DNA from: Stylophora pistillata
Taxonomy: Eukaryota
DNA length: 64,000 nucleotides
Reading direction: 5' to 3'
Assembly (NCBI RefSeq): GCF_002571385.2
Contig: NW_019218298.1
Coordinates: 137,170-201,169, forward strand
Below, one piece after another: positions 22,901 to 64,000 of the stretch (position 1 is its first letter; each line of letters opens with the position of its first letter). The notes under the pieces were generated by a model. The model ran no database searches, was not told the origin of the DNA, and was given only the letters and a program-made list of their open reading frames with translations. The position numbers and the translations under genes were made by a program.

Positions 22901-25900
22901 AAAACAACCAAGGAAAAACAGCACTGCACTTTGCATGCGCAGAAGGCCATGACAGAGTGGTTGAGCTTTTGATAAATCTTGGTGCTACTGTGGAAAAGTA
23001 AGGTTTCAGAAAACGAAAAATCTGCTAATTTTTTTCGAGAAAGGAAAATGAGATAGCTTTAATAAGTATCGCTTGTGCCATTCTCTCATTCTCTCAGGAC
23101 AAGGAAAGAGGAAAGTTTTAGGAGACAGTTGACCCTCTCTTATGTAGCGACTCGCAGTAATAGTCTGTAATGACACGGCTACTGAGCACGCTTCCAAATT
23201 CCATTAAGAAGCTACTGTAAGATCTTCCTTTGAAATATCCGTCTTCCGCTTCTGTCATGATTCCAACAGTGCAACGATACAACACAAAGTTGAGGAAACA
23301 TTGGCAATTGAGGCGACAACACATTTAAAAGTATTGGATGAAAATCATTCATGAAATATCTATGCTGGACTTATACCGGCGATATACACTGTTCACACGG
23401 GGTTGCCTCTGATTTTTGGTTTTTAATGTTCGTCGCAAAAAAAATAAGAAAGACAGAGACAAGGGAGCAAAGTTTGAGAAAGAGGAGTGTTACTTGTGTT
23501 TATGAATTCGATTATTTTCATTTGATGCATTAATTGGCGCAGGAGAATTGGATCAACAAAGAGAGGGCTATAAATTTAACTCTGCAAAATGCAAGGTTAA
23601 ACTGTGATATACTTTCAGGGATCATAATGACAGAACAGCGCTACATATTGCGGCCATGAGAGGCTCCAAGCAATGTGTCCAGTGCATTTTACAACACCAT
23701 CCTCAGTGCATTAATCTCTTTGACAAGGATCAGGTACGTAGCTCTTACAAGTAAAAGAGTGAACATCCTGAAAGTTTCAACCTGCTAATGCATAACGTCT
23801 TTGAAGTCTCGTACTTGCTCATCCCCGGAAACCATCACACGACTTTGCTCAGTTTGATCGAATTCCCTCCCCCCCTCCATGGATATTAAAGTGTTTTTTG
23901 CTTTAATGAATGTCTGGTGAGTCCGCCAAGGGTAGCTCTCAAGTTTTACTTTATTCTTAATGTCATCCCTAGTGATTGTTATCCTTTCACATTTCCTTGG
24001 TATTGGACTTTCTGAGGTGGATTCGGTGCCGATTACATGTTATCTTATAAATTATATCTTATTACTTGTCGTTGACAAGGGAAAGTCTCGATGTTCTAAT
24101 CTTGCACAATGTAGAAACAAAACTACGCAGAAGAAACACAGAGAGTCCTATTTCCTGTCCATCCCAGACTTGAGTAGTTGTACATCTTTTAATTAAGGAC
24201 TTCCATAGTTATCCTCCTCCATAGAGGCGTCTGGGCTCAAACCTGGGGATTAAGAACACACAACGAAAAACCAAAATAATGTATTAAAGGAGTATGTTTT
24301 TTCTTTCTTTAATTCACAGCTCATATTCTTATAACTTTGCTTCTCTCACAGTACCGTGCTGAAGTACTGTGAATGAAAAGTGTCATATTTCTCAATTGAA
24401 TCTTGCGATCAGTTTAACTGATAAATTTCGCAAGTTAGCGACGAAACAGAACTAAATATGCCGAGATATGAGTGTTTTCCTGCGATATTTTGCTGTATAC
24501 TGCTTTCAACGAAAAATCCCACAGTGATTTGTCGTAGATTAAGAGATATGTCATCATGATATATCATTTTAAGGAAATATCGCGTCAGTGTGTTATCTAT
24601 CGTCTAATGAAAGATAGAGCAATCTCCGTCATAGCTTGAATCTTTGAACATAACAGGTTCAAATTCTACTCATCAAGGCAGTTTTATCATAAACCAGCAC
24701 GTGTCTAAACGAACAAAATAGAGACACATACCGAGAAATGGAGCTCCTCTGGATGTCATTAGATAAAATTTGCCGTTTGGTTTCGTTTTGTCGGCGCCAT
24801 ATCCCATAGTAGGGCATTCGCCATCGCAGGCCTGGAACTTTCCTTTCTCACAGTCGTAATAATCCTTGCAAGGTTGTGCTTCCCAACTGCGGGGGTTTGT
24901 TAGAGATGCAATGAAGTATTTCCATGCCCTCTGATGGTCACATTTCACTGTCTGAACGAACTCTAAAGAATATAAAAACATTTTCAAACGAGCTCCGAAA
25001 ATTATCAACGGTTTCTTTAACCATGTTCTGAGGTTATCTCAAACAATACTTTTGCCATCTCTTGAACCTAAATCTCATATGCTCGTCTACATGCATAACC
25101 GTGATGGGATATACTCATGTTTCCAAGTTCGAACAACGTACTCCAAAGCATTTGTATTCCATATACATGATACTGCAAGACTAGGCGTTTTTATTTAATC
25201 ACTCTGGTAGTTCAACCTACCCAGCTCAACCAAATGTCGTAGGCAGCCACGTTGATCAATGCCTCCGTTCGGAAAAAAGTCCGCGTGGCCGCCCTCTCTG
25301 CGCATACCGAAACCGACAAAACCGCTGTTCTTGGACATGTCAGTGTGTATGACATCAACGTATTCTGCATCACTTGGGTCCAACCGGAAGCGCGGATCAG
25401 AAATGCTGTTGAAACAGGGACCAGCTGGGTCCAGTCCTTGAGAGGAAAAAATGGTTAAATCTGCACTTAGGCCGAATGGCTTACGCAGCCGGATCTTTTT
25501 TTTTTTGTAACACAGAACTAGTACTACTTTTTACCCCGGATAGGACGATAGGTCGTTGCTAGTCACTTTGTAACACAGAACTAGCACTACTTCTTACCCC
25601 GGATAGGACGATAGGTCGTCGCTAGTCACTAGGGTGGTAGAAACTCGCTCATTAAATGTTGAAAAAAAAAAACTCTGATGATATGGAAGACTTCACATGA
25701 GATGGCACAAAAATATTCAAGATAGAAATTTTTTCTTCGCCATAACCTGATTTCTCATCGAATCGAGTAGGGAAACAGAGAACAAACTAGTGCTTTCTTT
25801 ACTACGCACTGCATTTCACAGGCTTCTCTGACGCTTCCATTGTACCAATTTATATTCCTGGGTGGAGAAGACTCTGTGAGAGAAAAATGTCTTCCCCAAA

Positions 25901-28900
25901 AAAACATCACAATGGGACCAGCCGGGTCTTTCCAGTCCCAGACCTCCAATTTGTGTTCTCTAATTGTGTTTTTGTACCTGTAATGCGACCAAGCGTCATC
26001 CCGGCTTTCTCCTTTAAATACCTCCCGACATACCCTGCGGTCTGTCCACCAAGGCTAAATCCCACAATATAGAACCTCTTAGCCGAGTCAGGTGACCTCG
26101 AGGTACTGTTAATCAGGAACCTAATCAGCTCTGCCACTTGAGCCCCAACGAGCCGGGTGTTTCCAACAGATTGTCCATATCGTCTTTTGGCTCCTTTTGA
26201 CCAGTCCACCAAAATCACATTGCAGTCTTCTCGTTGTAAAAGGGCATCTTTCAATTCAATGGTCCATCCCTTGGTTGCACTTTCTAGAGTTAATGTTATA
26301 AAAATGTCGATAAAGTTGTTAGTTAAAATGTCATCTGTAAATATGCTTTAGTTTCTCCGAACAAAATTTCTACGGTCTAACTACGCCCTGAAGCGGACAA
26401 AAGAAATATTGGAGAGAGCGTAGGCCATCAATCGCCCCCCTTCCCCGGTGCTTGAGCCGCAAACAGCTTTGGCACTCACCTCTCCAGCCGTGAATCACGA
26501 AGATTGTTCGCCGTGACATGTCAAACTTCGGGGCCTTCAGTTTGTCTGTATCAAAATCGTCTATTCTCCCATACCCTTCCTTAGTGTACAAATCAAATGT
26601 TGTGCCAACAGCACTAGGATTTTGTGGTAGGCTTGGTTGAATACTGATCAAGCCCCAGCGGACACTAGGTTGTTTACTGAAGCAGCCGTACTTTTCATAG
26701 CAGACTTTCGAAGGGTTATTAAACAGGAAATCTGTGGATAGAAAAATGTATAAAGGATTGACTGTTATCTTTAAATTCATGCCCCTCGTGATTTTCTCTA
26801 ATCTACGAAATGCAAAAAGCCATAAAGAAAAAGAGCTCTTACGTTTTACTGGGATTTTTGTCCGATTCTTTGCGGCCCCGGAAAAAACCATGAACTCAAC
26901 CACTATTAGTAAGGCAGTGACGACACGCAAACCAAGTGCATTCATCCTTACTGGCTCTTCCACGAAAAGAAATGATCGTTTTAGGCTTTCGCACTTCTAC
27001 GTCAGTAGTTAAGGGCGCTACCATGGGCTGTGACCATTCAGAGAGCCGGATATCGTACACGTGACCACCAAGAACAATAGACCTCACACTTAAGAACAAT
27101 AGAACAAAAGGATTTGATCACGAAGACTTTCAACATCATCCCTATCAAGGCCGAAAATGTCCTGCCTGTCATCGAAAAGAGTGTCCTAATTATTCGTGCA
27201 ATAAATCACCAGAACTCACGTGTGAAAAGTGTCATCGCAATTTTTACAGTGTGGATTGTTATCAAGATCACAAAACCTCACAAGAAAAAGACAAGAACAC
27301 CATGTGTAAATTGTTTACTAAATGTACCAAGTGTTGTTAATTAGTCGAGCACTCCCATAAGAAAAAGAACAACGGAAAAAAGTAAAAAAACACAAATGTG
27401 GTTTGACCGTGTGTCCAGTATGTGGAGAAGATGTGGATACGGGAATCTACAAATGCTTTATTGAGCCTGTCGGAGAGAAAAAACGACCTCAACGTTCTAA
27501 AGAAGAAATTAAAACGAGGATCCAACGACTGCAGCGGGAAGGTATACCCGTAGCAGATATGGACCCCGAAGAATTAGAGTTCAACGATCCACTCATGGGT
27601 TACGCCGGGGTGGAAATGTGGGAATGTAATTGGGATGACTTCTCAAAGCGCGACCCGCGAGTGGTACGGTTTCTTGACACCTTAGAAATGGTAGAATCCC
27701 TGCATCCGCGACATGCTCTTACGGTGGAAGAACTGGCGCCACGTATTTGTACCACAAGACTGATGAGGCCCATGGAGAAAAAGTACATTACGTCGATGTC
27801 ACCTCTAAATATCCGTGGGTCAATAAGTATGGAAGATATCCCGTGTGACATCCACAGATTTTTACAAATCCTAAAACCACTGATCTAACAGATTATTATA
27901 AAATCGCCAAAGTTACGGATATTGTACCACCAGAAGAATTCTTCAATCCTGTCTTACCCTAAAGAAGTGGAGAAAAATTTGACTTTTCCGTTATGTCGTA
28001 ATTGTGTGGAAAAACAACAAGAGAAACCAATGCTCGACCGCCGATCGACCTATACTCAGACCGATCACGAACACCTCATCCACGACACGTGGTGTACACC
28101 CGAAATCAGTAAAGCCGTGGAAAAAGAGTACAGGATTGTAAAAATTCATGAAATGTGGCATTTTCGGGAAGAACAACGGGTCGAAGGATTGTCTAGCGGG
28201 TATTTAGATACATGGCTAAAAATAAAGCAAAAATCAAGCGGGCGGCCATCACATGTACGCATATCAGAAGAGTTACAAAATTACATTGACGACTATGAAG
28301 CGCAGGTAGGTATCAGAATCGAACCGGAAAAGATTTTAAAGAATGGAGCCAAATGTTCGTTAGCCAAACTCATGTTAAATTAACTCTGGGGTAAATTTAG
28401 AAAACGGCTTAACAAACCTGCGGTGGAATCAGTCACAGCGCCACACGAATTGTTTGAATATTTAAATAATTTGTTGGTGGTAATTCATGCGATTCGCATC
28501 TTTTCAGAGGATGTGTTGGAAGTAGTGTATTAATAGTTCTGTGGACGAAGACGCTTCTAAAGGCGGGAAAACTAATATCTTCATCGCCGCCTTTTCGACC
28601 GCGCAAGCCCGCTTGAAATTATACATTTATCTGGATCCTTTAATTACAAGATCGTTTTCTCAGCTTTAAAACAGTTTTGTGCCGGGAGTTCTTTTATTCG
28701 CATCTGATTTGTATGAGGAAATAAAACAGCCGTAGGTGTTTTCTTGAGTTCTTCGTAGCTACTAATATAATAGTAATACCATATTTCACCATGGTAATCC
28801 ACTTAGCAGAAGCTGTAATGAATGATGCCCTAGGTAAATCCAAGCAAATTCAAAATTCATGGATCTTAATGGTTTCATGGTTGCGTTTCTCGCATGAGAA

Positions 28901-31900
28901 AAAATTGCATCTTAGAGACCAGTCATCACTTACCGCCAGAAGACATTATCTCAATCATGGTAAATCTCCTGCTACTCTTTTTCCCTTCTGTTGTTTGAAA
29001 AGTTGGAAAATTTGACTTTTGAGCGGGATTTTTTTAAGATGCACAAACCACTGGGTAATTCATCTAACGATCAAACCGCATCCATTTTATTCGCGAATGT
29101 GGCAGCCAAACACTTGCAACCCTATTTTTCCTCTGTTCCAGAACACTGCACTGCATGTGGCCGCCATTCACGATTACCCAGACGTTGTGTCGTGTTTGCT
29201 ATCGTATCCTGAACAGGAAATCCTCATGAACAAGAAGAATCGTAATGTATTGGATGCTGCCATAAATGCCGAAAGAAAGAATGTTGCACTTGCGATAGCA
29301 AGCCATGACAGGTCAGAAAAAAAGGTGTTTCTTTTTTCAAGTATGTTCTTGAAATCTCTCTCTCTCTCTCTCAAAAAAAAAAAAAAGCCAAATGATAAAA
29401 GCATCGTCATCAAATTGCAGTTTCATGGAAATAGCTGCAGGTGTAAAAAATTACTCTTATTTTCATAGATGGCGCGAAGTGCTGACATCGTCTTCCCCTG
29501 GCCATATCGCGCAGATGCAAAAGCTCGTGATTAAAATACCAGAAGTCGCTATAGTAAGTAAACTCAAATTCTTGTCTCCCTATTTCATAGATAAATACTA
29601 ATCGGAGGTTAAACTCTGCTGTAATTGTAATCCTTGGGTAACTGAGTGGTGAAGGTAATTCTGGATATCTTTGAATTTATGAGCTTCGCCTTAATTGTGG
29701 TTATTATTGAAATGTCTCTCTATTTTCCAAATCAAGAGAATGCCAACTGTTTTGAAGTTCTTTTGTCCAAACCAATCACTTGCAGAACAAAAATCAATAA
29801 TGACTTCGTTATGTAAGTTTTCCCACACTTTAGACCGACAGGTTGATTGTTTTTTACTCTGAGCTCTCATCTTTTTTTTTATTGGCCGTTGTGTTTTCTT
29901 TTTTACGATTTTACGATATTCAAATGCTCCCACCACTTAAAATTTTCATTTTCAACAAAGTTTCACTTTACAACGTATAACGTTTTTGTTCTGGTTTACA
30001 GCGATTCATGGATCAGTGTATCACAAGGGAAGGAAATCCAGACGGAGAAGACTACAAAGTAAGTGTCATCTTCTACCTGAAAAAAAGGAATACACTGAAA
30101 TGCCTGGCACTTAGCGCGAGTACGTATTCGAAAGGTCTGAAATCCTCTTGTGGAAATAAACCGCATCCATTTTTTTTTTGCTGTCAGATACTCTTTGTGC
30201 TGACCTGCAGAGAGTCTTTTATCGAGCTGGATTAAATACCGGGTTAATATGTGACAAGCGTCCTGAATACTGTTGGGATCTGTTGTGTCGAAAGTAAAGA
30301 TTTTTCATTCTAAAATACAATGTTTTTTTTATAGCAAAGTGCGTAAGAAGTACGACCAGATTTCTATATGCGACCAAATAGGGTCTGACTTTTGTAACGA
30401 ATAGCGCTCCAAAGTAAATGACATACAAAATGTAAAAAGTTAGAATTATGAACAATTGTTTATCGTATCAATTCCAAATTTTAAGTTAAATTGTTTAACC
30501 TTCACAAAATTTGTCTCTTTCCTAACTTTCTAAAGACTACGTATCAAACTAGGCAAAGTTATTTGATGCTTAAAGACCTTACTGATCCATCACACTACAA
30601 TATATCGGAAAGGTCCTTGTCTTGATAAACGACGACAATTGTTTACATTTCATTTTCAGATTACATACGATTTTACCATAATTCAAGGATCACAGCAGCC
30701 AACCCAAGATCCACTGGTAGTACTTAAGGTATGAACGAGGGGGAAGAGGTATTTTTTGTTCTTCAAAAGGAATTTTACTGATCACGAACGTTATTTTCGC
30801 TTTCCACTTACAGACCATGCTGGAACATCGTCGAATATCCTGCTTGACTCATCCAGTATGCTTTATCGTTATGAACAAAAAGTGGTAAGAGATACTACGA
30901 ATGCATAAAATTTTCTCTGAACGTAGGAGAAACAGTCAAGCTGCATGTATTAAGATATGTATTAATAATTAATATTAACATGTATTAAGATAGTCCTAGT
31001 AAGAGTGGTGCTGAAAACTGACAACTGATGTCTTAAATGGTTAGCAATGTTTTTTCAAGGTACCTTTCAGATAAGTTGATCAAAATTGTTGAATGGTGGA
31101 ATTGTTACAGTATTTTTACTTGACCCTCTCCTCCCTCAGGCAGACGTTTGGATGGAAGTCGTTAGTTATTAACCTTGTTCTGTATCTTATCTTCGTGGTA
31201 CCACTAACCGCGCTTGCAATCTTCACGAGGGCGAATGAAAGGCGCCTTTGCCGTTTGAACGAATCCCTATCAAGAAAGGTATCTATTTTGATTGTTTTTT
31301 GTGCAATAATGTACATTCTTGGGTACGCACAAACATTACGGATAATTTCCCCATGGTCAGTTATTTAGCTATATCTTGGGGATGGTTCAGGAAAAAAAAA
31401 AGAAGAAGAAAATTACCAAAGCTGGGTAACCAAAACTGTTCACATAACAATGTCAATCAATAATATTAAATCCTTAGAACACTCATTTTTGACTGTTGTA
31501 AGTTACCGATGGACCCTTTTCGAAATTGTAAAACATCCTCAATTTCAAAATGTGGCTGGGTGTACAACGTTTTCTATGAAGTAAATTTGATTGCAGTAGG
31601 GCTAAAAGTCACTTTGGCATCAGAAGGCTTCGTTGTTCCCTTCGCCTTCTGTATTTCGAGAATGGCCCTTCCTTATTTTACTTTGATGGATAGTACAACC
31701 CACGTGAGAACCAAGGATCTCCTCCTTCGTCAGTTTTTTCCAACGTCTAATTCATTTTTAATAATTCTCGCTTTTTTTCAGGAATATATCCACATGAATG
31801 TCCCATGTAATTTAACAGACTCGGTAAGAGAGTTGTACGTTTTGCAACATCTACACAACATCTTTTGTATGAAGTGCCATTTACTAGTTTGAAAAATTCT

Positions 31901-34900
31901 CATTTCGAAATGCAGAGACTTCTCAGCTAATGACACAGGAAAAAATTGTTTTCATGTAGGAGTGGTCTACCCTCGCTATTAGCAGAGAAGAAGTTTACGG
32001 TGTTGTCTCTACAATTGACTCCTTCTTGCCCTTACTATTAAACAAGTGAAGATGAAATTTCCTGTGTTCAAATATCAAAGCGGGCAGGATATGGGACATA
32101 TATTCGGTTGCTCTGTTGATGTTTTGGTTTGTTTTTTTCTAACAGGTTGCTCAGGTTCTTCAGTTTGCAGTTGGGATAATCGCAATTCTTCACCTGATAA
32201 AAGAATTACTGCAGCTAAAGAAGCAGGTTGGTTATTTCACATTGATCACGATTAAGCAAGATTAAAACAGCTTCCACTGATTGTGAATGAATGAGAATGG
32301 TAAGGAATACCCTTTCTTTTAACAGACAGTCGCACCAAAACGTTTCGTGGAACCAAACATAGTAATCACGATAGTAAATTTGAGCAGAAAAGAAAATCGA
32401 ATAAGAATATAGAATGAATACCTGCAAACTGCCTGAAGAGCTGGAAAATGTGAGTGAGAAGTCGTAGTTGATCTTAAGGAAGCATCTAATGGTTGAGAAG
32501 ATGGTGCGAGTGTCTGGACCAATCAAGGAGCGTGGTGTGGGTGAAGCGGCGTTAGGTGGCGTGATAGAAAATTATTCAATTAAAACCACTGCATTTAAAT
32601 GCTTCTTAAATTCTTTTATATTCGCAATTGAAGTCCAAATACTAAATATGTCTACTTCATGTTCTAGAGGATTAAATATCTTCGTTCACTGTCCAACTAC
32701 TTTGAGTGGGTGGGGTATGGCTTTGCGTTGTTTTACATTGTTCCCCCTTGTGACTGTAAGCTGGGATTCCGGCAGGAAATTGGAGCAATGGCCTTGTTCT
32801 TTGGCTGGATGAACCTCATCTTGTTTCTTAGAAGGTATTAATGATGTATACATAAGATAATTAAGAGGACCAATTTTGTGATAGGTCATTGAATTGGAAA
32901 GATTCATTCCTCTATAAATGATCGCAAATTAAGCTCCTCGTGTCGATGATGAAAAAGTGAGATGTGAAAATCTTTAAGCCCGAAATGGCTTTCATCAGTA
33001 AACATTAACATTTCAGGCATCTTTTGCAAATCACAAGCAACATTTCTACCCGACTGAGAGGATTCTGCTACCTAGGAGTCAAAAACTCAAAATCTATGTA
33101 CGGCTCATTAATTCAGTTTTCCTGTAACTCAAAAGAACAAAAATCATGGCTAGACATAAATCATTCTTTTTTCATCCTCAAATTACAGGTTTTCGTCCTA
33201 TGGACAATACATAATAATGTTGACAACAATGTTTGCCACCCTGTTTAAGGTGGGTATTTAATCATGAAACAATAACGAAGGAATATCGGGCATGTGATAT
33301 GTTTTTATCATCTCCAAACTATTCTAATGGCATCTTACGAACGATTTTGTCACGACACCATCTGATTCAGTTACGAAAATAAGAACCTAATTAAACCAAC
33401 GGATCGAAATTCACAAATCGAAGTTGATACCTGTGATAAACTTGGCTTTAATACCAGGATGGATCAATTTCAAAGCAATATGACGTGCCCTAAAGCACAT
33501 GGGCCCAAACATGCAACGGAACACTAGAACAGAACCGGAAATACTTAATACTACAATAACCTAAATAAATCTTCAGCTGATAACCTCACGGCTAGACTGA
33601 CGAAACCGTTTCCAACGACAGGCTGACAAATTACTCTCTTCGTTTCCATCGACAAATTATCATGCAATTGTAGCGAGATTGCGCAAATAACTTCACAGAA
33701 ACTACTTGGACAAAAATTAGACAATCACTTCAGTTTTACTGAAGACATAGATGACATTTGTAAAAAGGTGTCACAACGTATTGCGGTGCTGAAGAAGATT
33801 AAGTGTAACCTGCCTCTAGCCGAGCGTAAGCTACATTTCAACGCCTTCATAAAGCCAATAATGTTGCATGGCTCATGTGCATGGTGCACTGCGTCAGTAG
33901 AGAACGTTAACCTCTTATCCAAGCTGCAAAAGCGAGCAGCTCGAGTAATCCTGGATACTGACATCGGTGAAAGAAGCGAGATGCTTTTTAGCAGACTCGA
34001 TTCACTTAAGGAAGAATTAAACCTTAAAAGGACTAGTTTAATATTTAGGCGCATCAAAGATGAAAATAATTGTCCGAGTTATATAACAGAACTTTTAACG
34101 AGAAACTCAGACCGACACACCAGAACCAGTCGCTATAGAAAATATAACTTAGTGTGCCCCTCCTATAATAGAAAAACGAAGGGGAAGGGGACGAACTTTT
34201 CAGGCCAGTGGAGCAAAACTATGGAACAGCATCCCTTTAGAAATTCGCAAGAAAGACTCCATTGGCTCTTTTAAATCTTCTGTTCGAAAATATTTTTTAT
34301 CCAAGAACTCCTTGCTTAGTTTTTAGTTGTGCATATTCAGATTTCACCCAGAAATTTTCTTTTTTTTTTTTTACTATCTTACAAGTGTAAATAGTTTTTA
34401 ACTTTTAACTTAGGATAGAGGGCCACTGGTTCGTCAGTTTTTAACTGTTATGTGTTACCCTCTATGTGTTACTTACTTGTTGTTACTTACTTACTTACTT
34501 ACAAAAAAACTCTCGTTTTACCTATGTTACCCATGTCAACCTTCTCAGGTGTAAGCCTAAACTAGAGAATAACACAAAACTAACCTTAATTGTTTGATAG
34601 CGTAAAACTAATGTGATTACCATCAATGTTTTCCAGGTCCTGCTCCTGTTTTTCATGTTAGTCATGGCTTTTAGCAGCACATTTTACCTGCTCTTAGACG
34701 AAGAAACGGTGAGATTTAAAGTCTGGTCTCATTTTTTATTGTGTATTTCATTGAATTTTCATTGTGTTTTTGAGTCTGTCAGTCCATGAGCCGGTTAGTC
34801 AGTCTATTGGCCAGACATTCAGTCAGTTAATAAGGCAGCCAATCAGTCGAACAGTCGATAAGTCAGTCAGTAAGCCAGTCAGTAAGCCAGTCAGTAAGCC

Positions 34901-37900
34901 AGTCAGTGAGCCAGTCAGTAAGCCAGTCAGTAAGCCAGTCTAACAGTCATCCATCCAGTCAATCGGTCAATCAGTCCGCCAGTTTTCAGTCAAGTAGAGG
35001 GTGCACGGGGTGGGCCACATCTCGCCTCGGGGGGTGACGTCCCTGCCCGAAAATCCTGTATTCCCCAGTTATGGGATAAATAGTGAAGCCATGGACGCAG
35101 GTGGTGGACTAGCTTGCTCAAGCATCTGTGACGTAATCGCGGTAGTGGTCAGAAAGTAGTATCAGCCTTTCAGCTGACACTGCAGAAGGCCATGGCAGCA
35201 GGTGGCATTGTGTTCTGTGCGAGCACCAAGACATCTTCCCAGAAGTGGCCAGCAGGGTTCTTATCAGTTTCAACTGATACTGCGGCGAAGTTACTGTTTG
35301 TCCGGGCCGTCGGGAACCTTTTTTGCCGCATGGATCCTCAGCCAGTAACCCAGAGAGTGGTGAGAGTACCCGAACAATGCTCTTGTCACCATAAAAATCT
35401 CGTGCAGTCCTCCCTCCTACTCATTAATGAGTGGCAGCCGATTATTAGTTTATCTATCTGCATTTCAGCTGTCATCCGGCAGCAGATCACTCAACCAGTC
35501 AGTCATGTAATCTTTGCGCATACTGGTATTTATTTATCAATAACATCCATATCATATGGATGGATGGATGAATGGATGGATAACCTTTATTTAAACACGA
35601 TAAAAATTAATAGATTGACCATTTTATTTTTTCAGGAACCCTATGCCACCTTTCCATACTCCATGATGACCATTTTTGTGATGACTCTCGGTGAACTCAA
35701 CTATGCTGACTTGTTCATGCCTTGGGACAAACTGGAATATGCCGCACTGACCAACATCCTGTTTTTCATGTTCGTGTTGGGAATGCCTATCATTCTTATG
35801 AACATGTTGGTGAGTACCGCTTCGATAACACGAAATCAGAGATGCGAAAACCTGTTCAAACCGTATTTACTTGACTAGACCGCTATCCTGGCAGTTAGTT
35901 CGGCCTTGAAGCAGAAAGACTTGTCGAAAGGCATGAATTCGAGGCTCATCGAGTTAAACTTCACTTCTACACTTTTAAATGAAAATTTACCTCTCTTAAC
36001 AGTTGTTTTTAAAAATGACAGAGTTTAGTAGTATCGATTACAAAATTTGAACGGTTTTGTTTTTAAACGTCATGTCATTTTAAAATCGTCACAGATCGGT
36101 CCCCTCACAACACTCTGTTCAGACGTCCTCAAGTAGGTAATACGTAAATTCAAAGCCGAAAAAACTACATCGAATGAGGAAAAATACCATATGAATTTCA
36201 CCAGTTACGACACTAGGAAGAAAATATACTGGGGTGTAATAAGCAATGAATTTGTTTACTTATGTCTTGTTACAAGGTGGGCCTTGCTGTTGGTGATATC
36301 GACAAGATCCAAGTGAATGCTTTAATTGACCGTTATGTGATGCAGGTTGGTCTGAAAGAACAGATTTAGTGAGCAAGGCTCTTGCAGTAGCGACACTAAG
36401 TTGGTTTCGCTCTATCGAAACCTTGTCTCTAGCGCTTTCGTGTCTATGCTTACTTCACTCCCTTTGAGTGGTTTTGTAAGAGAATTTCTATCTTAGCGGC
36501 TAACTAGATACCAGTCTCAACTAACTAAAAGCATTTGCTCGTTCCATTCCTCTTTAGGTCGAGTTGGTTTTAGACATGGAGGAAACAGTGCCTAAATCTA
36601 TTGTTAAACATGCCCATGTAGATAAACACGTTGAATATCCCAACAGGAGTGCATCCAAGGTATTGCTCATGTTCACAAAATTAAGTTTTCACTGAAACCT
36701 TTCGCCTGTTACAATTTACAAAACTCTTACCTTCTTAGATGTTTCCCTTCCACAACTAATTTTCTTCTTCATTTGCACAAACATTCTAGACTGTTCACAT
36801 CAAAAATCGTAAGAAGTTAGGCCTGAAATGTCATGAGCAATTTTTTATGTTCAAAATGGCGAAAGGGTTCCAGTATGATCATGTGTAAGACGTCGCAAAA
36901 TGTTACTTTCCATCTCGCTTTACATACCGGAAAGGAGCCCGCCGTCCTCCCAGTTGGTACGACGACTAGACTAATAGAAAAGTAAAATCCAGTCTCTCTC
37001 TCTAAGACTAGCCGCATAAGTTGTATTTTAAAACTTTTCTCTTCCAGCTCTATGAGAAGCTTTTGGGTTTCAGCCGTCCGGAAGGAGATGATGATGAAGG
37101 GGACACATCCCCAGACCTCCCCCCTGCATTTCATCCACTACTGAAGAGAATGGAGGAGCAGGAGAATAGGTACGAGCCTGAAACTAAGTCAGATATTTTT
37201 TACTAATATGCAAGAATGAAAAAAGTCTGGCTCGAGAGAACTGGAGAAGAGGCAAACGTGTATGATTGCACAGTTATAACATACCTCTCGCAATTTTTAC
37301 AAACTTCGACCATGTAGTTGGAAACAAAATTAGTAAATAGAATGATAGAATATTTGCAACCTCTCCCTTTTCCGGTATCGTGGACGTTTTCAGGGTAATT
37401 TACGTGAAGGAATAAACAGAAAGAAATCTTCCTCTTTTCCACAGATTCATGAAACTTTGCCGTTCACGTATGATGTGCAATGTAACATTAAACATTTTGA
37501 TCGTGAACACCTTCTTGCAGTACTAACACTATACTAACCAATATCATAAGTAATAAATACACCTAATGTATGTCAAGGTGCAAACGTCAGTTTTTTCCAA
37601 AGAGGGGTGAAAAAAAAAGCAAGGGCATGGCTACAAAGGATACTTTTCAGATTTCGATCCCCTTCTAGTACAAAAACTTACAATGTATAGCGAGAAAGAA
37701 AAAAAGGAAAAACAACGGAAAAAGATGGCGCACTCCCGAATTTCAATAAGACACTAGTGTTGAACCCACCTTTCCTTTGCCTCTAAAACGCATTGCTGAA
37801 ATTATGATAGGTTAAATCTCTAACCCCGTTTTTGTCTCACACGGTAGGATCAGTGGCATCTACGAGCTGTTGCAGGAACAATCAAGGCTTCTCAAATCGA

Positions 37901-37929
37901 TCAGTCAACGAAAACAAACGGAGGAGTAG
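16972..37929 (+). CDS. TRPA1: TRPA1-like transient receptor potential channel (ankyrin repeats + 6 TM), 29 coding exons, ~1062 aa
   Basis: Phase-consistent GT-AG exons: 16972-17139, 17692-17785, 18292-18467, 18609-18716, 19072-19180, 19543-19640, 20160-20207, 20558-20743, 21067-21255, 22070-22156, 22479-22564, 22836-22997, 23619-23733, 29142-29311, 29469-29553, 30002-30058, 30660-30728, 30814-30884, 31140-31278, 31782-31823, 32146-32226, 32668-32834, 33189-33249, 34637-34708, 35636-35809, 36277-36345, 36558-36659, 37048-37169, 37848-37929. Many TPLH/TALH ankyrin repeats, LTHPVC..KKW pre-S1, MTLGELNY filter, [14 protein letters not shown]6/TRP-like helix. AATAAA at ~38065 and ~38328. Family is secure; strict orthology to TRPA1 is not tested. 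Confidence 0.95.
21433..21750. repeat. Intronic MITE-like interspersed repeat
   Basis: GC-richer block whose end (CCCAGTACGGCCCTCGCGCTTGGTTAATGAG) resembles, in reverse, 54428-54520. Confidence 0.5.
22633..22716. repeat. Short palindromic MITE
   Basis: CAACCTCGTTCCCAGGGCTTTTCC ... GGAAAAGCCCTGGGAACGAGGTTG perfect terminal inverted repeat. Confidence 0.85.
24193..26945 (-). CDS. Secreted pancreatic-lipase-related (triacylglycerol lipase/PLA1 family) gene, nested antisense in TRPA intron 13
   Basis: Exons 26843-26945, 26480-26731, 25978-26283, 25221-25436, 24732-24962, 24193-24242, all phase-1 junctions, no internal stops. Signal peptide [24 protein letters not shown]; VCYEKYGCF; IHGW; NVILVDW; nucleophile GFSLG; RITGLDPAG (Asp); DVIHTD; DFFPNGG; CDHQRA (His). 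No C-terminal PLAT domain. Confidence 0.92.
25504..25630. repeat. Two-copy ~63-bp tandem duplication in a lipase intron
   Basis: TTTGTAACACAGAACTAG...GGTCG(T/C)GCTAGTCAC occurs twice with few mismatches. Confidence 0.9.
27105..28640 (+). mobile_element. Decayed protein-primed DNA polymerase B of Polinton/Maverick/adintovirus type (endogenous viral element fragment)
   Basis: Across frameshifts and stops: Cys-rich N-terminus ([25 protein letters not shown]), [69 protein letters not shown]. Exonuclease region appears deleted near 27480-27600. Confidence 0.9.
33630..34502 (+). mobile_element. CR1/L2-clade LINE 3' fragment
   Basis: ORF2 C-terminus ([32 protein letters not shown]) followed by a 3' UTR and a (TTAC)n tail. 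Confidence 0.85.
34862..34942 (+). repeat. (CAGTAAGCCAGT)n minisatellite
   Basis: About six 12-bp units; only about one unit at the paralogous site near 62520. Confidence 0.9.
34997..35459. mobile_element. GC-rich ~460-bp insertion of unknown class in TRPA intron
   Basis: Absent from the paralogous intron at ~62590, where CAAGTAG runs almost directly into GCATTTCAG. Confidence 0.65.
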
Positions 37930-56829: not shown

Positions 56830-59800
56830 TTATGAATGACACCAAAAGCTTGTAGGAATCACCAATTCCTCTGGAAGCGGATATCCTAATGCAGGAAAAG
56901 TACCGATGATGAAAATAAAGCCTTTGCGTAAAATTTTAAATTAAAATTATCTTCGGTTAAAAGTAGTTGACATCGCTCACCTTTCGAATCAGACCGTTCA
57001 CATTCACCATCGACAGATCCACATGAAGAGTTATCCGTGTCAGCAAAGTAATCGCTCGAGCTGCCGTCCTTGTGGATTGGTATGCCCCTAAAATCTTCTT
57101 GATCCTCAGACTTGGCTTTAAAAATAAAGTAATGCATTTAAGCGAGACCTAAGTTCTTGTCTTAGAACAAATATGTGAACATTCATGTTCATGCATCCAA
57201 ATAAGTTGTATCAGAGGAAAAATACCAGGTTTTCTACCGCGTAATTGTTAAACAGATGGCGCAGTCGTGTCAATAGAACCGACTACTGGCAGATTTTGAC
57301 CTCTCAATTATTTTCCATTCGGGACAACTATTACAAACAAAACAATGGCGTAACATGATGGGTACCAAAATAGGACCCAGCTACGTCAATCTTTTCGCAG
57401 GCCATAATTATTTTACATTTAAGGTACTCTTCAGTTGGTCGACTTTCTTTCAAGGCTAATAATCATAGTAAGAGACTAGCACGTATTTGATGAAATAAAT
57501 GCATTAGCCTACGATAGAAAGTTAATCGCAGAGAGAGAGAGGGCAGAAATCTTTTTCCGTTAATAAATGATATAGCACCTCCCACATAAATTTGACTGGG
57601 ATCGACAGCTACCTAAGTAGCTGTTACCCGTTAACTGTAAACGTCACGCTCAATCCCTCTGTTGCTGAACAGACGCACGGCAACACGGAAAATTGTGGTC
57701 GATTTTCTAAACAAAAGTTACCCTATCTATTAGCAGACAGGTTACCTTCTGAAGGCAAACTACGTCCAGAGAGTTCCAATCCAACTGAGATACTAAAATC
57801 GACCTCGGTTTTTCTTTTTTTGGTTCTTCGGAAAGCAGTTACTACAATTGGCAAATTAAAGCGGTAGTAACCAAGTGAGGGGTTGGTTAAAATTTAGCCG
57901 ACAAATGGCAAGGTAGATGCAGCAAGACCGAGTTTCTGGGTTTTCCTGAAGCGAACAAACAATCGTGTTTATTAAGTCGTCTAAAATGTATCTTCAAAAA
58001 GGGACATGATGACCGAGTTGACTCTATTTCTTTTCATTTTAGACAAGGTGCCATAGACATCAGTGATTTCAGCGACAGAGTAGCGCATGAGTTTCAAGTG
58101 AAACCAGAAAAGACACTTGAGCACAACCTGAAGCTCAAAACTTAAAACAATCGAGTTTATTAAGTCGTCTAAAATGTATCTTCAAAAAGGGACATGATGA
58201 CCGAGTTGACTATATTTCTTTTCGTTTTAAACAAGGTGCCAAAGACATCAGTGATTTTAGCGACAGAGTAGCGCATCAGTTTCAAGTGAAACCAGAAAAG
58301 ACACTTGAGCATAACCTGAAGCTCAAAATTTAAAACTGATTAAGTGTTACTTAGTTAATTACCATGTTTCCTTTGTGCTTCCTCAGCAGCAGCCTTCGCA
58401 AGTTCTGACCAATCGATTGTCTTGCGATATTCTTTTGAAGCAGAAATCTCTTCTGAATATCTTCCAGTTCAAAAAGGATAAAATCAGTAGAAAACTACAT
58501 GCATCTACACACTACGATAAATTTAAAAAAATGTATACCTGATCTTTGAAAAGAGTTGTTATTTGTTATTACTTTGTGCATCAAATGTATTTTTGAGGCT
58601 ATACCCCTTTGTTTGCTGGTCCTTACCCCCATACCCTTCTCTCACCTCAATGTCAACTAATAACATTACCACTTTAGGTTGTTTGGATGCATGCAATAAC
58701 TTCATGGTACACTCCTTAACAATTAATGAAATCATTACAAGATTTCTAACTCTCATTTCTCCAGATGATGTACCTTTTTGCCACGTCTTCCAGGTAACAA
58801 GCAGTCTCGTTGTGGCCATGATCCCTTGCGACCACCTCGGGCAATGGTCCACTGTCTTTGTAAGCACTGAAGACCAGTCTTCCAGCCGAGGTGGAAAAGA
58901 TCATCTCAATAAACTGCTGAGCGCCCTTTCTTGCAGCAGTATAAACCAGGAGGCATAAAAACTGGACTTGTTGTGCATTTCCTGTACATAAAAGTGAAAA
59001 CAAGTCAAATGGAANTTAGTCGCTAAGTATCACGCCGTAAAACACCAATAATTTTGATCGATCTTTTCGAGAGCTCTGTCTGCCTTTAATATTTCAACAA
59101 GGCAACGAAGCAAATCGAATCTGGTACATTGTTGACATAATGGCTACTTATAATTATAAATGACATCAAGCCAAAAGTTGCAACTGAGGCACCACAGAGA
59201 CATGTATGTAGTATCAAGTTTCTTCCTAGATTTCTTTTGTCAGAAAGTTCGACTTCAAGCGCCCTTGATGTTTAACATTAACTGCTGCGTTTCCTCGAGA
59301 ATAATCCAAATGTGGCTGCGAAAGAAGTTCTCAAAAGGTCTTAACTTGCGCTATTCAAAGATTCCCTCCTCGTTCATGTTTCAACGATACTCTGGGAAAT
59401 TTCTTCTAAATTTCAATTTGTTTTAAGAATAAAACAAAGATGTGGAGTACGGAATTTTGATGATATAGACTAAAAAGCGGGAGGTAGATGTAAATTTCAC
59501 GTCGGCACCGGTTTTGAATTAATTGCCCCCAAATTTTATCCCTCAGCTGATTTTGGAAGTCCAGTAATGGCTTTCACTGCCCATATTTCAGGAATAATGA
59601 TCAGAAGTGGTTGGTCATCAGAGATATTGGGCCTTAGAATACCCTTATTTTTTAACTTTGTCAAAACCAGAAAAAGTCTTCTTTACTTCAGCGAGAGGTA
59701 AGGGAAGAAATGAAATGAAATGAAAAAGTTAAAACAATTCCGTTTTCTTGAAGTCTGATAGATTTTGAATACAACCCAGTTGATTGAATTTGCAGATGGA

Positions 59801-60976
59801 CTTTCGGTTTGTCACAGCAGAAATGCAAAGTTAGCTAATTAATTATGCAAAAAGTGCAGGAAATGGGGGTTTTCCCTGGGAGACCCTATATCTCCCAGGG
59901 AATTAAATATTCTGACTTAATATTTTCACATATTTATTAGCTCCTGATACTTAGCATTTGTGCCAAGTTTGAGCCAAATCAGTGATTTGAGGTTTATCAA
60001 CCCCTGCCTGGTTTCTTCATGGACACACTCAACATCAGAAAGGGATGGGATTTTTTAGCAAGGATTTTCAAGTACAGTAGCTAAAGAAAAGGCAAGGGGA
60101 AATCAGTTGTGCAGAGGTCACTCACTTTGAAGTTCAACTCACAGAGGCTGAAAACACCTTTTTTTCAAAATAAGTTCTTTCCTCAAAGAGGCATTAAGTT
60201 TCACTCTTCATACCTCTGTAAGATCTTCAAACACAAATAAACAATTTTCCATGAAAATATACTCGGATAATTGTCTCAGCATGCATCAGCGACAACCAAA
60301 TATCTCGTATCTAAGATATACAGTCATCTTGAGAAAGGTATTAAGCTTAACTAAACTTCTTGCAAATTACAGTATTTCAAGGTATTCACTTTATAGGTGT
60401 TAAGTGTAAATAAAACCTTCCGATCTGAAAGTAATCTCAGTTTCCATTTGAGTCTCCCATAAGAGGTCAAGCTGGCTAATTCATGATGTCTACTTGTCAA
60501 GAAGTTCCAGAGTAACACGCACCTCTATGCGTTGGGTAGTCTTTCATTTAGCAAATGTTGAAGCATGGTTGGTGTTTGGGTTCTGTCATTTTTGCCTTGT
60601 GACTACACAGTAAACGTTTACTGAGGACACCTTGTAATAATTTAGATTAAAACTTACCAAAAGCTCCACATCTTTGTGGGTCTCCATCACCACCATCAAA
60701 ACTGTTGGCTGTGTGGCTTATCATTTCCTCAGAAAAGCTTTCAAATTGGCTGACTTCATAAACCATGGACTCTACTTCATTTTCATCAGGAAAGTAAAAT
60801 ATTTGAGTTGACCCTAGAAAGGTATTGTTATGATCTTTAATAATCACTTTGGCAAAACCAGATGATGGTGCACCTAAAAGAAAAACATAAGTCCCAAGAA
60901 TTCTTTCTCTCATCAAGGCTGTTTGAAATTTACCTTGCTTCAAGGTTGAATCAACCGCGTTGAAATACAGTACCAC
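56830..60976 (-). CDS. Multi-exon gene with partial DBB/IPT-like segment followed by an ankyrin-like helical repeat (BCAP/BANK/Dof-like architecture); possibly truncated
   Basis: Phase-consistent exons ~60933-60976, 60658-60873 (GAPSSGFAKVIIKDHNNTFLGSTQIFYFPD), 58774-58981 (LLVYTAARKGAQQFIEMIF...LPEVVARDHGHNETACYL), 58363-58460, 56981-57115, 56830-56885. CCAAT boxes at ~61035-61072. No in-frame ATG in the first exon. Confidence 0.6.
57270..57405 (+). mobile_element. Penelope-type reverse-transcriptase relic
   Basis: Frameshifted DNYYKQNNGV.MGTKIGPSYVNLFAG motif. Confidence 0.65.
57957..58336. repeat. Two-copy 188-bp tandem duplication
   Basis: Units start at 57957 and 58145 (AAACAATCG.GTTTATTAAGTCGTC), nearly identical. 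Confidence 0.9.
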
Positions 60977-62199
60977 CTCATTTCACCCTTCGTTGCAAGA
61001 TCATGTGCTGTAAGACCAAATGGTTTCTAGAATGTGATTGGTTCGACTTTTTGATGCTCCCTTCTGATTGGTAGGGCGTTTTTGTCCAAGTTGGAAATGT
61101 GTTCAAGCGGAAGTTTAGGTCCAACTTGGACACTGCTGATTATAAATTCGTCCAACTTGACTTATCTTGACTAATTTTTACTACTTAGGCGAACTAATAT
61201 ATACGTTATGACCTTTTTCTTTTTTACCACCAACAGGAGTGGTAAGAAGTGGTAGGAACTGGTACGAAGTGGTAAGAAGTGGCAGGAGTGGTAAGCGTTT
61301 TTCCCTTTTTTCAAAGTTGCCTTGCACGAGCAGTACGAAACCAAACAAGGGTATCTGTCACGCATCGCGTGAGAAAGAAGGTAAATACAGCTGTACTTTA
61401 TTTTGCGTCACTATTGCTCTCTCACCCTCAACTTCTATCAAAACACGTGTGTTTCGTAACTCTGACCGCTCGAGCTGGCTGAATTTTAACTGAATTTTTC
61501 CACAAATAAAATTCAGATTTATACAACTGTGAAGCCTGACTTGTTAATCTTGAATTTCTTCCCAGGGGGGGTACATAATAAGACAAACTTTTGGAAACAG
61601 AAAAAATTTCAATTCCGAAGCAACAATCGATCATATTCCGATCGAACTAATCTTTGGGAGAGGTTTGATCGTTAACGACTTTTTACTCCTCAGATCTGAT
61701 TGTTAAGACCCAGTCTCTCTAAAAGCGGTGTGGTGCATTTCGGTTCTAAAAATCGCTTTCTTTCAAGCTTTGCTCATGAATCTGTTGAGTAGTCTAAAAG
61801 TAATCGAAACCACCTTGGTTTCAAACCAAGTTTCGAAATGACTGTAAATTATTTTTTTCCCAAGCAAACATCACTTCAGCGCTCAAAGGCCTGTTTTAAG
61901 CAGCGCCGAATTGAATTGAATTCAGCCCGTCTTTTCAAAATTGATTTTGCATTGCATGTTTAGATCGATGCTGTGAGAGAATAAATTACATAACTTTTTC
62001 TTCTCTTCTCCATTATTTAGTTTGACACTTACTTTCCTTTCGCCGCGATGACCGTATGCAACTTTTAATCTCGGCTCAGCGGAAAATTCGAACTTCCTCT
62101 CCATGACATTTTTATTCAGATTAACTAAAATATGGTAGAGGAGTAAATAAAATAAAAATATGTCGTAGTTACGGCGAACTTCTTACACAGCAGACCAAC

Positions 62200-64000
62200 A
62201 CAGGCGTGAGCTCTAACGAGAGAATAACACGAAAATAATCTCTCAATTGTTTTGTGGTGTAAAACTAAAGTGATTACCATCAGTGTTTTCCAGGTCCTGC
62301 TCCTTTTTTTCATGTTTGTCATGGCTTTTAGCAGCACATTTTGCCTGCTCTTACACGAAAAAACTGTGAGATTCAAAGTCTGGCGTCATTTTTTCGCACG
62401 TATTTTATTGAAGAAGTGCACTAGTCTGTCAGTCCATGAGCCGGTTTGTTGGTGTATCAGTTAGACATTCAGTCAGCTAACAAGCCAGTCAAACGATCAG
62501 TCGAACAGTCAATAAGTCAGTCCGTAAGCCGGTCCAATATTCATCCAGCTGGTCAGTCGATCAATCAGTCCGCCAGTTTTCAGTCAAGTAGTCAGTGAAT
62601 CAGCATTTCAGTTGTCATACGGCAGCAGATCACTCAACCAGCCTGTTATGCAGTCTTCACGCATACTGGTATTTATTTATCAGTAACACCCATATCATTT
62701 ACTTAATGGATTGTCGTTTTACTTCTCTTGCCATATGCCACCTTTCCATACTCCATGATGACCATTTTTGTGATGACTCTCGGTGAACTCAACTATGCTG
62801 ACTTGTTCATGCCTTGGGACAAACTGGAATATGCCGCACTGACCAACATCCTGTTTTTCATGTTCGTGTTGGGAATGCCTATCATTCTCATGAACATGTT
62901 GGTGAGTACCGCTTCGATGACACGAAATCAGAGAAGGGAAAACCTCTTCAAACATTTTTTGTTTTAGTGAGCTTTCTTGGCACATAATTCGGCCTTGAGG
63001 CAGAAAGACTATGAAGTGAGAACCTTCTCTCTCAGAATTACTGTTTTCACAAAATTCCATCGCATACCTAAAAAAATGTTTGTAGTCGACGGAGCCAAGA
63101 GGTATCGATTACGAGCCAGTACTATCTCAGAGTGGTTTTGTTTTTAAGTGTCAAGTCATTTTAACATCGTCACAGATTGGTTCCGTCACAGTACTATTTT
63201 TCAGGCATGGTAGGCACTACGTTAATTCAAATTAAAGCCGAGGAGATTGAATCGGCCAATCAGAATAAGAGATAATACCATATAAATCTCACGAGTTACG
63301 AAACTAAGAAGAAAACAAACTGGGGTGCAATAAGCAACGAGTTTATTTACTTAGCAGTGAGTGTCTTGACACTAGGTCGGCTGGGCAGTGGGTGATATCG
63401 ACAAGATTGAAGTAAATGCTTTGATTGACCGTTATGTGATGCAGTTTAGTCCTAAAAGAACAGATTCAGCGAGCAGATCTCTTTCACAGGAGCGAAATTT
63501 GTGCTGGTTTCCTTTAACAAAACCTTGTCTCCGGTGTCTTTAGGTGAAAGTTAACCTCGCTACCTCCTAGGAACTTGATACGACAGGGAAATGTAAGACC
63601 GTAACGGCAAACTCACAGCCATTGCTCATTCCCCTCCTCTATAGGTCGAGTTGGTTTAAGACATGGAGGAAACAATGTCTAAATCTACTGTTAACCATGC
63701 CCATGTGGATAAACACGTTGGCCAGCGAAATGAAACTCTCCCACTCGTTCATGACCTTTAAGGTGAAAAATAAATTCAAATGTTTTTACTGTCTTCTTTC
63801 AACAATTTCCAGCAAAGGTTGGTTGCTCGCCGCGGTTATTGGAGCAGTTAGCAGTAAAGCTGCTGTCCCAGAACTGAGACATGAATATCAAGTGGGATCT
63901 ATGCCCGCATTTAACTTTTTGTAACCCTCTTTTAAATGAATCGTAGGATTTATAAACGCAAGAGTAAAGTTCACATTAAAAATACATTTATACTGGCAAT
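62200..64000 (+). pseudogene. Partial duplicate pseudogene of the TRPA 3' end (S5, pore/S6, TRP-like helix exons and 3' UTR)
   Basis: Paralogous to ~34545-38366. Exons 62294-62365; ~62733-62901 (acceptor AG lost); 63376-63444 (donor GT->TT, GLAVGDI->GWAVGDI); 63645+ (TTA->TAA at 63657-63659). Last two exons are missing; 3' UTR resumes ~63818. Confidence 0.93.

What the first reader, a model, noticed from the sequence alone, without database searches (positions are those of the whole stretch)
23734..29141. TRPA channel intron contains an intact antisense secreted lipase gene plus a viral polymerase relic
Seen: intron 13 (5.4 kb, by far the largest coding-region intron of the gene) contains a six-exon lipase with signal peptide, full Ser-Asp-His triad and no lesions, on the opposite strand. 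Known: TRPA channels are modulated by lipids and fatty acids; nested antisense genes can be co- or counter-regulated. Inference: this could be a physically coupled lipase/sensor pair (lipid-ligand generator and receptor), or merely a passive insertion.
Basis: partly seen in the sequence, partly recalled or inferred. Interest (0 to 1): 0.7.

Follow-up and report, generated by a model that had tools for sequence, protein, structure and literature searches.

The report
Viral relic starts a nested lipase
A coral lipase gene sits backwards inside an intron of a TRPA ion-channel gene, and its messenger RNA begins with an exon inside a broken virus polymerase gene that likely now serves as its promoter; other corals lack the insertion, so lipase and channel likely share space rather than a job.

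Summary
TRPA intron 13 (23734-29141, 5,408 nt; next largest about 1,390) holds an intact antisense pancreatic-lipase-family gene (385 aa, six coding exons, Ser195-Asp223-His302). It also holds a broken Maverick/Polinton (polintovirus) pPolB fragment (27155-28651). Both genes are spliced in stranded RNA reads.

It is spliced to the lipase in 17 and 5 reads in two studies, and no lipase-strand reads lie further upstream. Its splice donor is a by-product of polymerase codons. The relic therefore likely supplies the lipase's start site.

A lipase-channel partnership is not supported. The same intron is 151-957 nt and empty in 16 of 16 informative contigs from other corals and 116-452 nt in 6 own paralogs. 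The lipase:TRPA read ratio differs between the two runs, and fatty-acid gating of TRPA1 is reported as mammal-only.

Best reading: a lineage-restricted, passively nested lipase duplicate with a transposon-derived 5' end. Both phenomena are known; this is a tidy, testable coral case.

The parts
16972..37929 (+). Host TRPA-family channel gene, 29 coding exons, 1,062 aa (ankyrin repeats plus ion-transport domain)
   Evidence: exact exon map to P0087; Pfam Ank_2 1.4e-82, Ion_trans 2.8e-14
23734..29141 (+). TRPA intron 13, 5,408 nt, GT..AG; acceptor end resembles the short introns of other corals
   Evidence: RNA junction 3+3 reads; blastn hits run 17 nt into the intron's 3' end
27958..28125 (-). 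Lipase exon 0, non-coding, inside the polymerase relic; 5' end approximate (reads still cover 28062, none beyond 28125), likely transcription start region
   Evidence: joint 27088/27958, CT..AC on +, 17 reads X21 and 5 reads X24; zero lipase-strand depth from 28126 to 29340 in both runs
27089..27957 (-). 5' UTR intron of the lipase, 869 nt; donor GTAAGA is the antisense of the polymerase's Val-Leu-Pro codons; acceptor lies about 65 nt outside the detectable relic
26843..27088 (-). Lipase exon 1: 143-nt UTR plus ATG at 26945, hydrophobic signal-peptide-like N-terminus
26480..26731 (-). Lipase exon 2 (ends in the IHGW beta5-loop motif)
25978..26283 (-). Lipase exon 3 (GFSLG, catalytic Ser195)
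25221..25436 (-). Lipase exon 4 (catalytic Asp223, beta9 loop, start of the 14-residue lid)
24732..24962 (-). Lipase exon 5 (catalytic His302)
23937..24242 (-). Lipase exon 6: last 16 codons, stop 24195-24193, 3' UTR, AATAAA at 23955, 3' end near 23937
   Evidence: (9 molecules begin at 23937)
27155..28651 (+). Maverick/Polinton (polintovirus) pPolB relic: cysteine-rich part, large internal deletion (about 350 aa of the intact frames unmatched), polymerase motifs A and B, ending before the DTDS motif; 3 frame changes and 3 stops between 27595 and 28642

Best explanation
An expressed, intact lipase gene lies antisense inside intron 13 of a coral TRPA channel gene and its mRNA carries a non-coding first exon inside a broken polintovirus polymerase gene; the lipase is likely a DNA-level duplicate that moved in from the coral's lipase family, the relic likely decayed later and likely now supplies the start site, and lipase and channel likely have no shared function. 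Shown: nesting, intact frame, splicing of both genes, exon 0 in the relic, a short empty intron elsewhere. Inferred steps: (1) A copy of a pocilloporid lipase, introns included, landed antisense in a 0.1-1 kb intron. (2) A polintovirus inserted just 5' of it and eroded to 1.5 kb. (3) Antisense transcription starting in the polymerase coding DNA uses a donor that synonymous codons had already laid down and splices into the lipase leader. (4) The product is a secreted, colipase-independent enzyme (short lid, full-length beta9 loop, no C-terminal domain), likely a broad lipase/phospholipase A1/galactolipase used in lipid digestion. (5) Any effect on TRPA would be transcriptional interference, not ligand supply.
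For: Exon 0 junction: 17 reads in X21 against 25 at the next junction and 23-36 at the five coding junctions; 5 reads in X24 against 4-8 at the three listed. No lipase-strand depth in 27146-27635 or beyond 28125 in either run. Donor GT present at the same codons in 4 of 9 other pPolB copies where the motif was found, with identical GTAAGA in 1. Intron 13 is 151-957 nt with no lipase or polymerase hit in 16 of 16 spanning contigs from 11 assemblies and 116-452 nt in 6 of 7 own paralogs, 1 not measurable. No TRPA hit in 20 of 20 loci around the other lipase copies. The nested lipase falls in a pocilloporid clade (SH-aLRT 96, quick tree) on a long branch of 0.53. dN/dS to four paralogs is 0.18-0.26 with dS 1.1-1.4; only exons and their edges align. 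The relic is still 65-83% identical in protein to its closest relatives; by hand calculation this caps its neutral decay near 0.14 per site, far less than the lipase's divergence. In Drosophila, nested genes typically arise by insertion of young duplicates, favour the opposite strand, evolve fast and are not co-expressed (PMC3814207, PMC5174743; abstracts).
Against: No cap-based 5' data: the start site is bracketed by read coverage only, from 2% and 6% of two runs, and a second start inside 26946-27088 is not excluded. Promoter activity of the relic was not tested. No Pocillopora or Seriatopora locus was seen, and no 1:1 Pocillopora ortholog of either gene was found, so neither the age of the nesting nor the order of events is fixed. 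The 16 contigs are of unnamed species, may repeat species and include TRPA paralogs. Six of 7 listed X21 allele differences in lipase exons change amino acids (sites 899:256; table truncated by 30 rows), so present constraint may be weak. At 28001 all 18 exon-0 reads carry a base that differs from the window, so exon 0 use by the window's own haplotype is not shown. Both genes are transcribed in the same bulk samples, and cell-level co-expression is unknown.
Confidence: 0.68

Rival explanations
1. Cargo model: the polintovirus captured the intron-containing lipase and carried it into the TRPA intron in one event, and the gene kept the element's internal antisense promoter.
For: Lipase and relic lie head-to-head, ATG about 210 nt from the relic's edge, and are joined in one transcript. 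Nematode polintoviruses carry host genes as cargo (as summarised in PMC11131425, sections 8 and 9). One event is more economical than two insertions in one small intron.
Against: No terminal inverted repeats or target-site duplication enclose the pair. No integrase or other element gene was seen in the intron's reading frames. None of 67 polymerase matches lies on the four contigs with other lipase copies. No lipase family among the 17 frames scanned from two intact elements' neighbourhoods. The lipase (dS over 1.1) looks much older than the relic's decay, and no close parent copy was found.
Confidence: 0.12
2. Coupled pair: the secreted lipase makes fatty acids or lysolipids that gate this TRPA channel, and the nesting is kept because it co- or counter-regulates the two.
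For: Both genes are intact and transcribed in the same bulk samples. The lipase shows long-term purifying selection. Mammalian TRPA1 is activated by polyunsaturated fatty acids (PMC3378573, abstract).
Against: Nesting absent in 16 of 16 other-coral contigs and 6 of 6 paralogs. The same paper reports that fly and zebrafish TRPA1 do not respond. A preprint finds the coral TRPA it studied is not a one-to-one ortholog of bilaterian TRPA1 (10.64898/2026.10.05.756843, passages; whether that gene is this one is unknown). Junction ratio lipase:TRPA is about 10:1 in X21 and about 1.5:1 in X24 (two runs only).
Confidence: 0.07
3. The relic is a bystander: it landed in the lipase's 5' region, the true promoter or enhancer is host DNA (28650-29100 or next to exon 1), and exon 0 is one of several leaders with no regulatory consequence.
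For: The donor is a chance by-product of codons. The acceptor and 143 nt of leader lie outside the relic. Two public accessions share the same lipase protein, which hints at alternative leaders. 17 against 25 reads leaves room for a proximal start.
Against: No lipase-strand reads upstream of 28125, and about 530 nt of relic lie directly upstream of that point. Exon 0 is used in both studies.
Confidence: 0.13

Closest known systems
Nested (intronic) protein-coding genes, as analysed in Drosophila (PMC3814207, PMC5174743; abstracts seen)
   Same: Short duplicate gene wholly inside an intron, opposite strand, with its own introns, fast-evolving.
   Different: Here the intron was short before the insertion (0.1-1 kb elsewhere), and the nested gene's first exon lies in a viral relic. 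Expression divergence from the host gene was not measured at cell level.
Transposon-derived start sites and first exons; Polinton-1N1_DR as a blood-specific start site for zebrafish dnase1l4.1 (PMC9341505, passages seen)
   Same: A Polinton-class element supplies the 5' end of a host mRNA.
   Different: In zebrafish it is an alternative, not exclusively used, start and is backed by epigenetic marks. Here the source is the antisense strand of a broken polymerase coding region, it is the only upstream exon seen, and there is no chromatin or cap evidence yet.
Endogenous polintoviruses (Maverick/Polinton) of stony corals (PMC11131425; abstract and sections 8, 9 read)
   Same: Protein-primed PolB; many related copies in this genome, intact ones beside an rve-chromodomain integrase.
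   Different: Only a 1.5-kb broken polymerase fragment remains. That paper's main text has no occurrence of 'intron', 'promoter' or 'host gene'; its supplements were not seen.
Pancreatic lipase family: PLRP2 (PDB 1w52, 1gpl, 1bu8) and extracellular PLA1s
   Same: N-terminal alpha/beta-hydrolase domain, triad, beta9 loop as long as in PLRP2, E 1.7e-67.
   Different: Lid of 14 residues (22-23 in classical lipases, 12 in PS-PLA1 per PMC9031518), GFSLG in place of GHSLG, no C-terminal PLAT domain. These traits are shared with its coral paralogs, so they are not special to the nested copy.

Membership tests
Nested gene | Whole transcription unit inside one intron of another expressed gene | tested here: met
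   Lipase RNA spans 23937 to at most 28125; host intron 23734-29141 is spliced out
Pancreatic lipase family | Family profile and Ser-Asp-His triad in register with solved structures | tested here: met
   Pfam PF00151 6.8e-79; PDB alignments
Pancreatic lipase family | C-terminal PLAT (colipase-binding) domain of classical pancreatic lipase | tested here: not met
   No PLAT hit; alignments end near residue 368 of 385
Pancreatic lipase family | Secretion signal | tested here: inconclusive
   Most hydrophobic 11-mers at residues 6-22; no predictor available
Inactive PLRP1 type (the public name of P0086) | Val and Ala two and four residues after the catalytic Asp (significance recalled, from no call) | tested here: not met
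   Query GLDPAGP matches active-type GLDPAEP of 1w52 and 1bu8, not GLDPVEA of 2ppl
PS-PLA1/mPA-PLA1 type phospholipase | Short lid and shortened beta9 loop (PMC9031518 passage) | tested here: not met
   Lid is short (14) but the beta9 loop aligns ungapped with PLRP2
Pancreatic lipase family | Lipolytic activity and substrate | not testable with these tools
   Needs an enzyme assay
Maverick/Polinton (polintovirus) derived DNA | Protein-primed family B polymerase homology | tested here: met
   70-74% to PF03175 proteins P0132/P0133; E 1e-49 to an intact own-genome frame. The relic's six pieces alone gave no polymerase hit in Pfam
Maverick/Polinton (polintovirus) derived DNA | Retroviral-like integrase linked to the polymerase | tested here: inconclusive
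   Not seen at this locus; present beside 2 of 2 intact related polymerases examined, which are under 50% identical to the relic
Maverick/Polinton (complete element) | Terminal inverted repeats, target-site duplication, capsid and ATPase genes | tested here: not met
   No long inverted repeats in 23600-29320; a fragment only
Transposon-derived promoter | Host mRNA's first exon maps inside the element and splices to host exons | tested here: met
   17+5 junction reads, two studies
Transposon-derived promoter | Capped 5' end and promoter activity inside the element | not testable with these tools
   Only coverage limits are available; no sharp start listed
TRPA-family channel | Long ankyrin array plus ion-transport domain | tested here: met
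   named coral homologs
Conserved functionally coupled nested pair | Nesting conserved across lineages | tested here: not met
   0 of 16 contigs from other corals; Pocillopora not seen

The most novel reading that the evidence does not exclude
A dead polintovirus polymerase gene, read backwards, has become the main promoter and first exon of a functional coral lipase, putting a digestive or symbiont-lipid enzyme under new, virus-derived control. The antisense transcription it drives through intron 13 also tunes the TRPA channel's expression. This would be a concrete case of polintovirus domestication as regulatory DNA in a reef coral.
Probability: 0.3. Interest if true: 0.65.

Novelty: new member of a known kind. 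Interest (0 to 1): 0.42.

Why it matters
Polintoviruses are abundant in stony coral genomes and their effect on host genes is posed as an open question (PMC11131425). This locus gives a small, testable example: a polymerase relic contributes the first exon, the splice donor and likely the promoter of a host enzyme. It also shows how such exons can arise, since the donor is already present by codon chance in 4 of 9 other copies. Practically, reads counted as 'polymerase expression' at such relics can be antisense host mRNA, and one public gene set splits this TRPA gene in two and fuses relic sequence to it (P0088, P0089). The lipase-as-ligand-source idea should be given low priority.

Tried and rejected
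Assembly artefact: rejected. Seven DNA or unlabelled runs hold 82-88% of the sampled words (four are one sample that may be the window's source), and contigs of two other DNA runs cover lipase, relic and intron ends in pieces, none spanning the whole. Pseudogene: rejected on intact frame, splicing and dN/dS. Retrocopy: rejected, since five coding introns are present and exon blocks match the paralogs. Element ends around lipase plus relic: none found. Viral contig scan with P0132: no match. Close DNA copies of the relic in the own genome: none; best protein-level copies 47-49%. Synteny by accession numbers in Pocillopora: no ortholog of the host TRPA found among 42 hits and the clusters looked up; the best Pocillopora TRPA (64%) matches a paralog on C91. 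Linking the neuronal heat-responsive TRPA g25745 of a preprint to this gene: no accession or length in the main text; bioRxiv supplements were not available. The polymerase-to-exon-14 fusion of model P0088: no such joint listed (threshold 3 reads). Searches for a prior description: TRPA/coral/lipase/nested, Maverick/Polinton with promoter or exaptation terms and with coral showed none for this locus in the listings; the library lacks most subscription papers. Earlier scan notes: nothing relevant. The careful tree did not finish; the quick tree was used.
Full report
WHAT IS THERE. The window is stony-coral DNA (G000:C513; run labels and all named homologs are coral). A TRPA-family gene runs on the plus strand from 16972 to 37929 in 29 coding exons that translate exactly to a public 1,062-aa model, P0087 (ankyrin and ion-transport domains). 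Intron 13 (23734-29141) is 5,408 nt; the next largest gap is 1,387. On the minus strand six exons give a 385-aa frame identical to public model P0086. A Logan protein with six differences (P0003) confirms the splicing independently. Both genes are thus already annotated, under records named Stylophora pistillata.

THE LIPASE. It scores E 6.8e-79 on Pfam Lipase and aligns best with PLRP2 structures, triad S195/D223/H302 in register. It has the active-type sequence after the catalytic Asp rather than that of PLRP1, so the database word 'inactive' looks like a best-hit label (the meaning of those positions is recalled). The lid has 14 residues, as in three paralogs where the pattern could be read (of five tried); the beta9 loop is full length and there is no C-terminal domain. 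Classical lipases have 22-23-residue lids and PS-PLA1 has a short lid plus a short beta9 loop (PMC9031518, passages). PLRP2 is described as a galactolipase and the guinea-pig form has a lid deletion (PMC8287333, passages). A broad-specificity secreted lipase is therefore the likely activity; this is inference. Pairwise dN/dS to four paralogs is 0.18-0.26 at dS 1.1-1.4; a fifth is saturated. In a quick tree of 45 proteins the gene groups with Stylophora and Pocillopora lipases (support 96) on a long branch (0.53), with no one-to-one Pocillopora partner. Against strong current constraint, 6 of 7 listed allele differences in run X21 change amino acids, close to the neutral site ratio, though the table was truncated.

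THE RELIC. Its largest open piece finds two unnamed PF03175 proteins at 74% and 70% and 67 places in the own genome including itself, the others at most 49% identical. Two intact relatives lie beside an rve-chromodomain integrase, the Maverick/Polinton signature; such elements are widespread in stony corals (PMC11131425, abstract and sections 8-9). The relic spans 27155-28651, lacks about 350 residues in the middle and stops before the DTDS motif. It has three frame changes and three stops. No inverted repeats bound it.

Stranded raw reads from two studies (X21, about 2% read; X24, about 6% read) were laid on 22001-29340. The five lipase coding introns have 23-36 junction reads in X21; three are listed for X24 with 4-8. 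TRPA's intron 13 is spliced in 3+3 reads. The lipase 3' end is near 23937, below an AATAAA at 23955. A further minus-strand intron, 27089-27957, has 17 and 5 reads. It joins the lipase leader to a non-coding exon beginning at 27958, in the middle of the polymerase relic and antisense to it. Lipase-strand depth is zero in 27146-27635 and from 28126 onward in both runs, so the 5' end lies between about 28062 and 28125, with about 530 nt of relic upstream. The donor is the reverse complement of the polymerase's Val-Leu-Pro codons. Of 13 other loci scanned the motif was found in 9, of which 4 have GT at that point and 1 the same six bases (two unrelated minus-strand rows dropped; the window's own motif was read). 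The acceptor lies about 65 nt outside the detectable relic. That the relic holds the promoter is inferred from coverage; no capped ends were available.

IS THE NESTING CONSERVED? A metagenome scan with exons 13-14 gave 26 loci from 227 pattern matches. Six weak ankyrin matches (33-54%) were dropped. Of the other 20, one is a spliced transcript, three end before exon 14, and 16 span the intron, from 11 assemblies. All 16 are 151-957 nt, and none of the 20 has a lipase or polymerase hit. In the own genome, 6 of 7 TRPA paralogs have a measurable intron 13 of 116-452 nt, and 20 of 20 loci around the other lipase copies have no TRPA hit (two copies sit near contig ends and several loci have gaps). 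In Oculina, TRPA tags (G044046-044380) and lipase tags (G044676-044706) form separate blocks on one chromosome, which hints at a move within a linkage group. The closest relatives, Pocillopora and Seriatopora, were not seen.

HOW IT LIKELY WORKS. An intron-bearing lipase duplicate settled antisense in a small TRPA intron. This is the usual route and orientation for nested genes in flies, where nested and host genes tend not to be co-expressed (PMC3814207, PMC5174743; abstracts). The relic looks younger: if all its protein divergence from the nearest relatives (about 28% in the main segments) were neutral decay, that is about 0.14 changes per site by hand calculation, against about 0.6 per branch for the lipase. 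The simplest order is lipase first, virus later, after which transcription starting in the relic was spliced into the lipase leader through a ready-made donor. A single cargo event is not excluded. Coupling to the channel gets little support: nesting is not conserved, the junction ratio is about 10:1 in one run and 1.5:1 in the other, and fatty-acid activation was found in mammalian but not fly or zebrafish TRPA1 (PMC3378573, abstract).

COMPARISON AND VERDICT. Nested genes and transposon-derived first exons are both known, and a Polinton-derived start site is reported in zebrafish as a non-exclusive alternative (PMC9341505, passages). What is particular here is the use of a broken polymerase's antisense coding strand as the only upstream exon seen, in a coral. 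I found no description of this locus in the listings; supplements were not read. Verdict: observation confirmed and extended; coupling unlikely (0.07); new member of a known kind; interest 0.42.

Noticed in passing
window 26901-28615 (+): Low plus-strand RNA (depth 0.2-2.9) over the relic in X21, none in X24, while flanking intron bins are zero. At 28001 these reads mostly carry the window's base (4 of 5), whereas lipase-strand reads carry the other (18 of 18). Could be allele-specific sense transcription or another copy.
   Followed up: partly
window 26946-27088 and exon 0 (-): The spliced leader (up to 311 nt) has three upstream ATGs: a 4-codon and an 11-codon frame, and a 42-codon frame overlapping the lipase start out of frame. 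Translational control is possible.
   Followed up: partly
window 28030-28306 and 29142 onward: One public gene set splits the TRPA gene in two and fuses 92 relic-derived residues to exon 14 (P0088, P0089). No such joint is listed, so it is probably an annotation error.
   Followed up: partly
window 62147-64000: A second TRPA 3' fragment (exons 24-27 equivalents) with no upstream exons in the window; 99.5% identical over 1,854 nt to a stretch near the end of contig C374. Partial duplication or assembly duplicate.
   Followed up: partly
G000:C78:89854-257726: About nine TRPA-like copies with long uninterrupted frames (286-336 aa) across the region that is split into many exons here, suggesting an intron-poor or retroposed TRPA array.
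   Followed up: no
window 33627-34274 (+): 215-codon frame in TRPA intron 23 that looks by eye like the end of a LINE reverse transcriptase (recalled); no informative Pfam hit.
   Followed up: no
window 25504-25629 and 25800-25950: A 63-nt tandem duplication (95%) and a dispersed repeat with over 30 listed genomic matches inside lipase intron 3.
   Followed up: no
window 22633-22718: High-copy short repeat in TRPA intron 11 that attracts reads from elsewhere.
   Followed up: no
window 1191-4166 (-), 8386-9459 (+), 58559-60982 (-): Other apparent coding pieces: exons resembling fibronectin-III and thrombospondin repeats (by eye), a 357-codon single open frame, and exons of an unidentified gene.
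   Followed up: no
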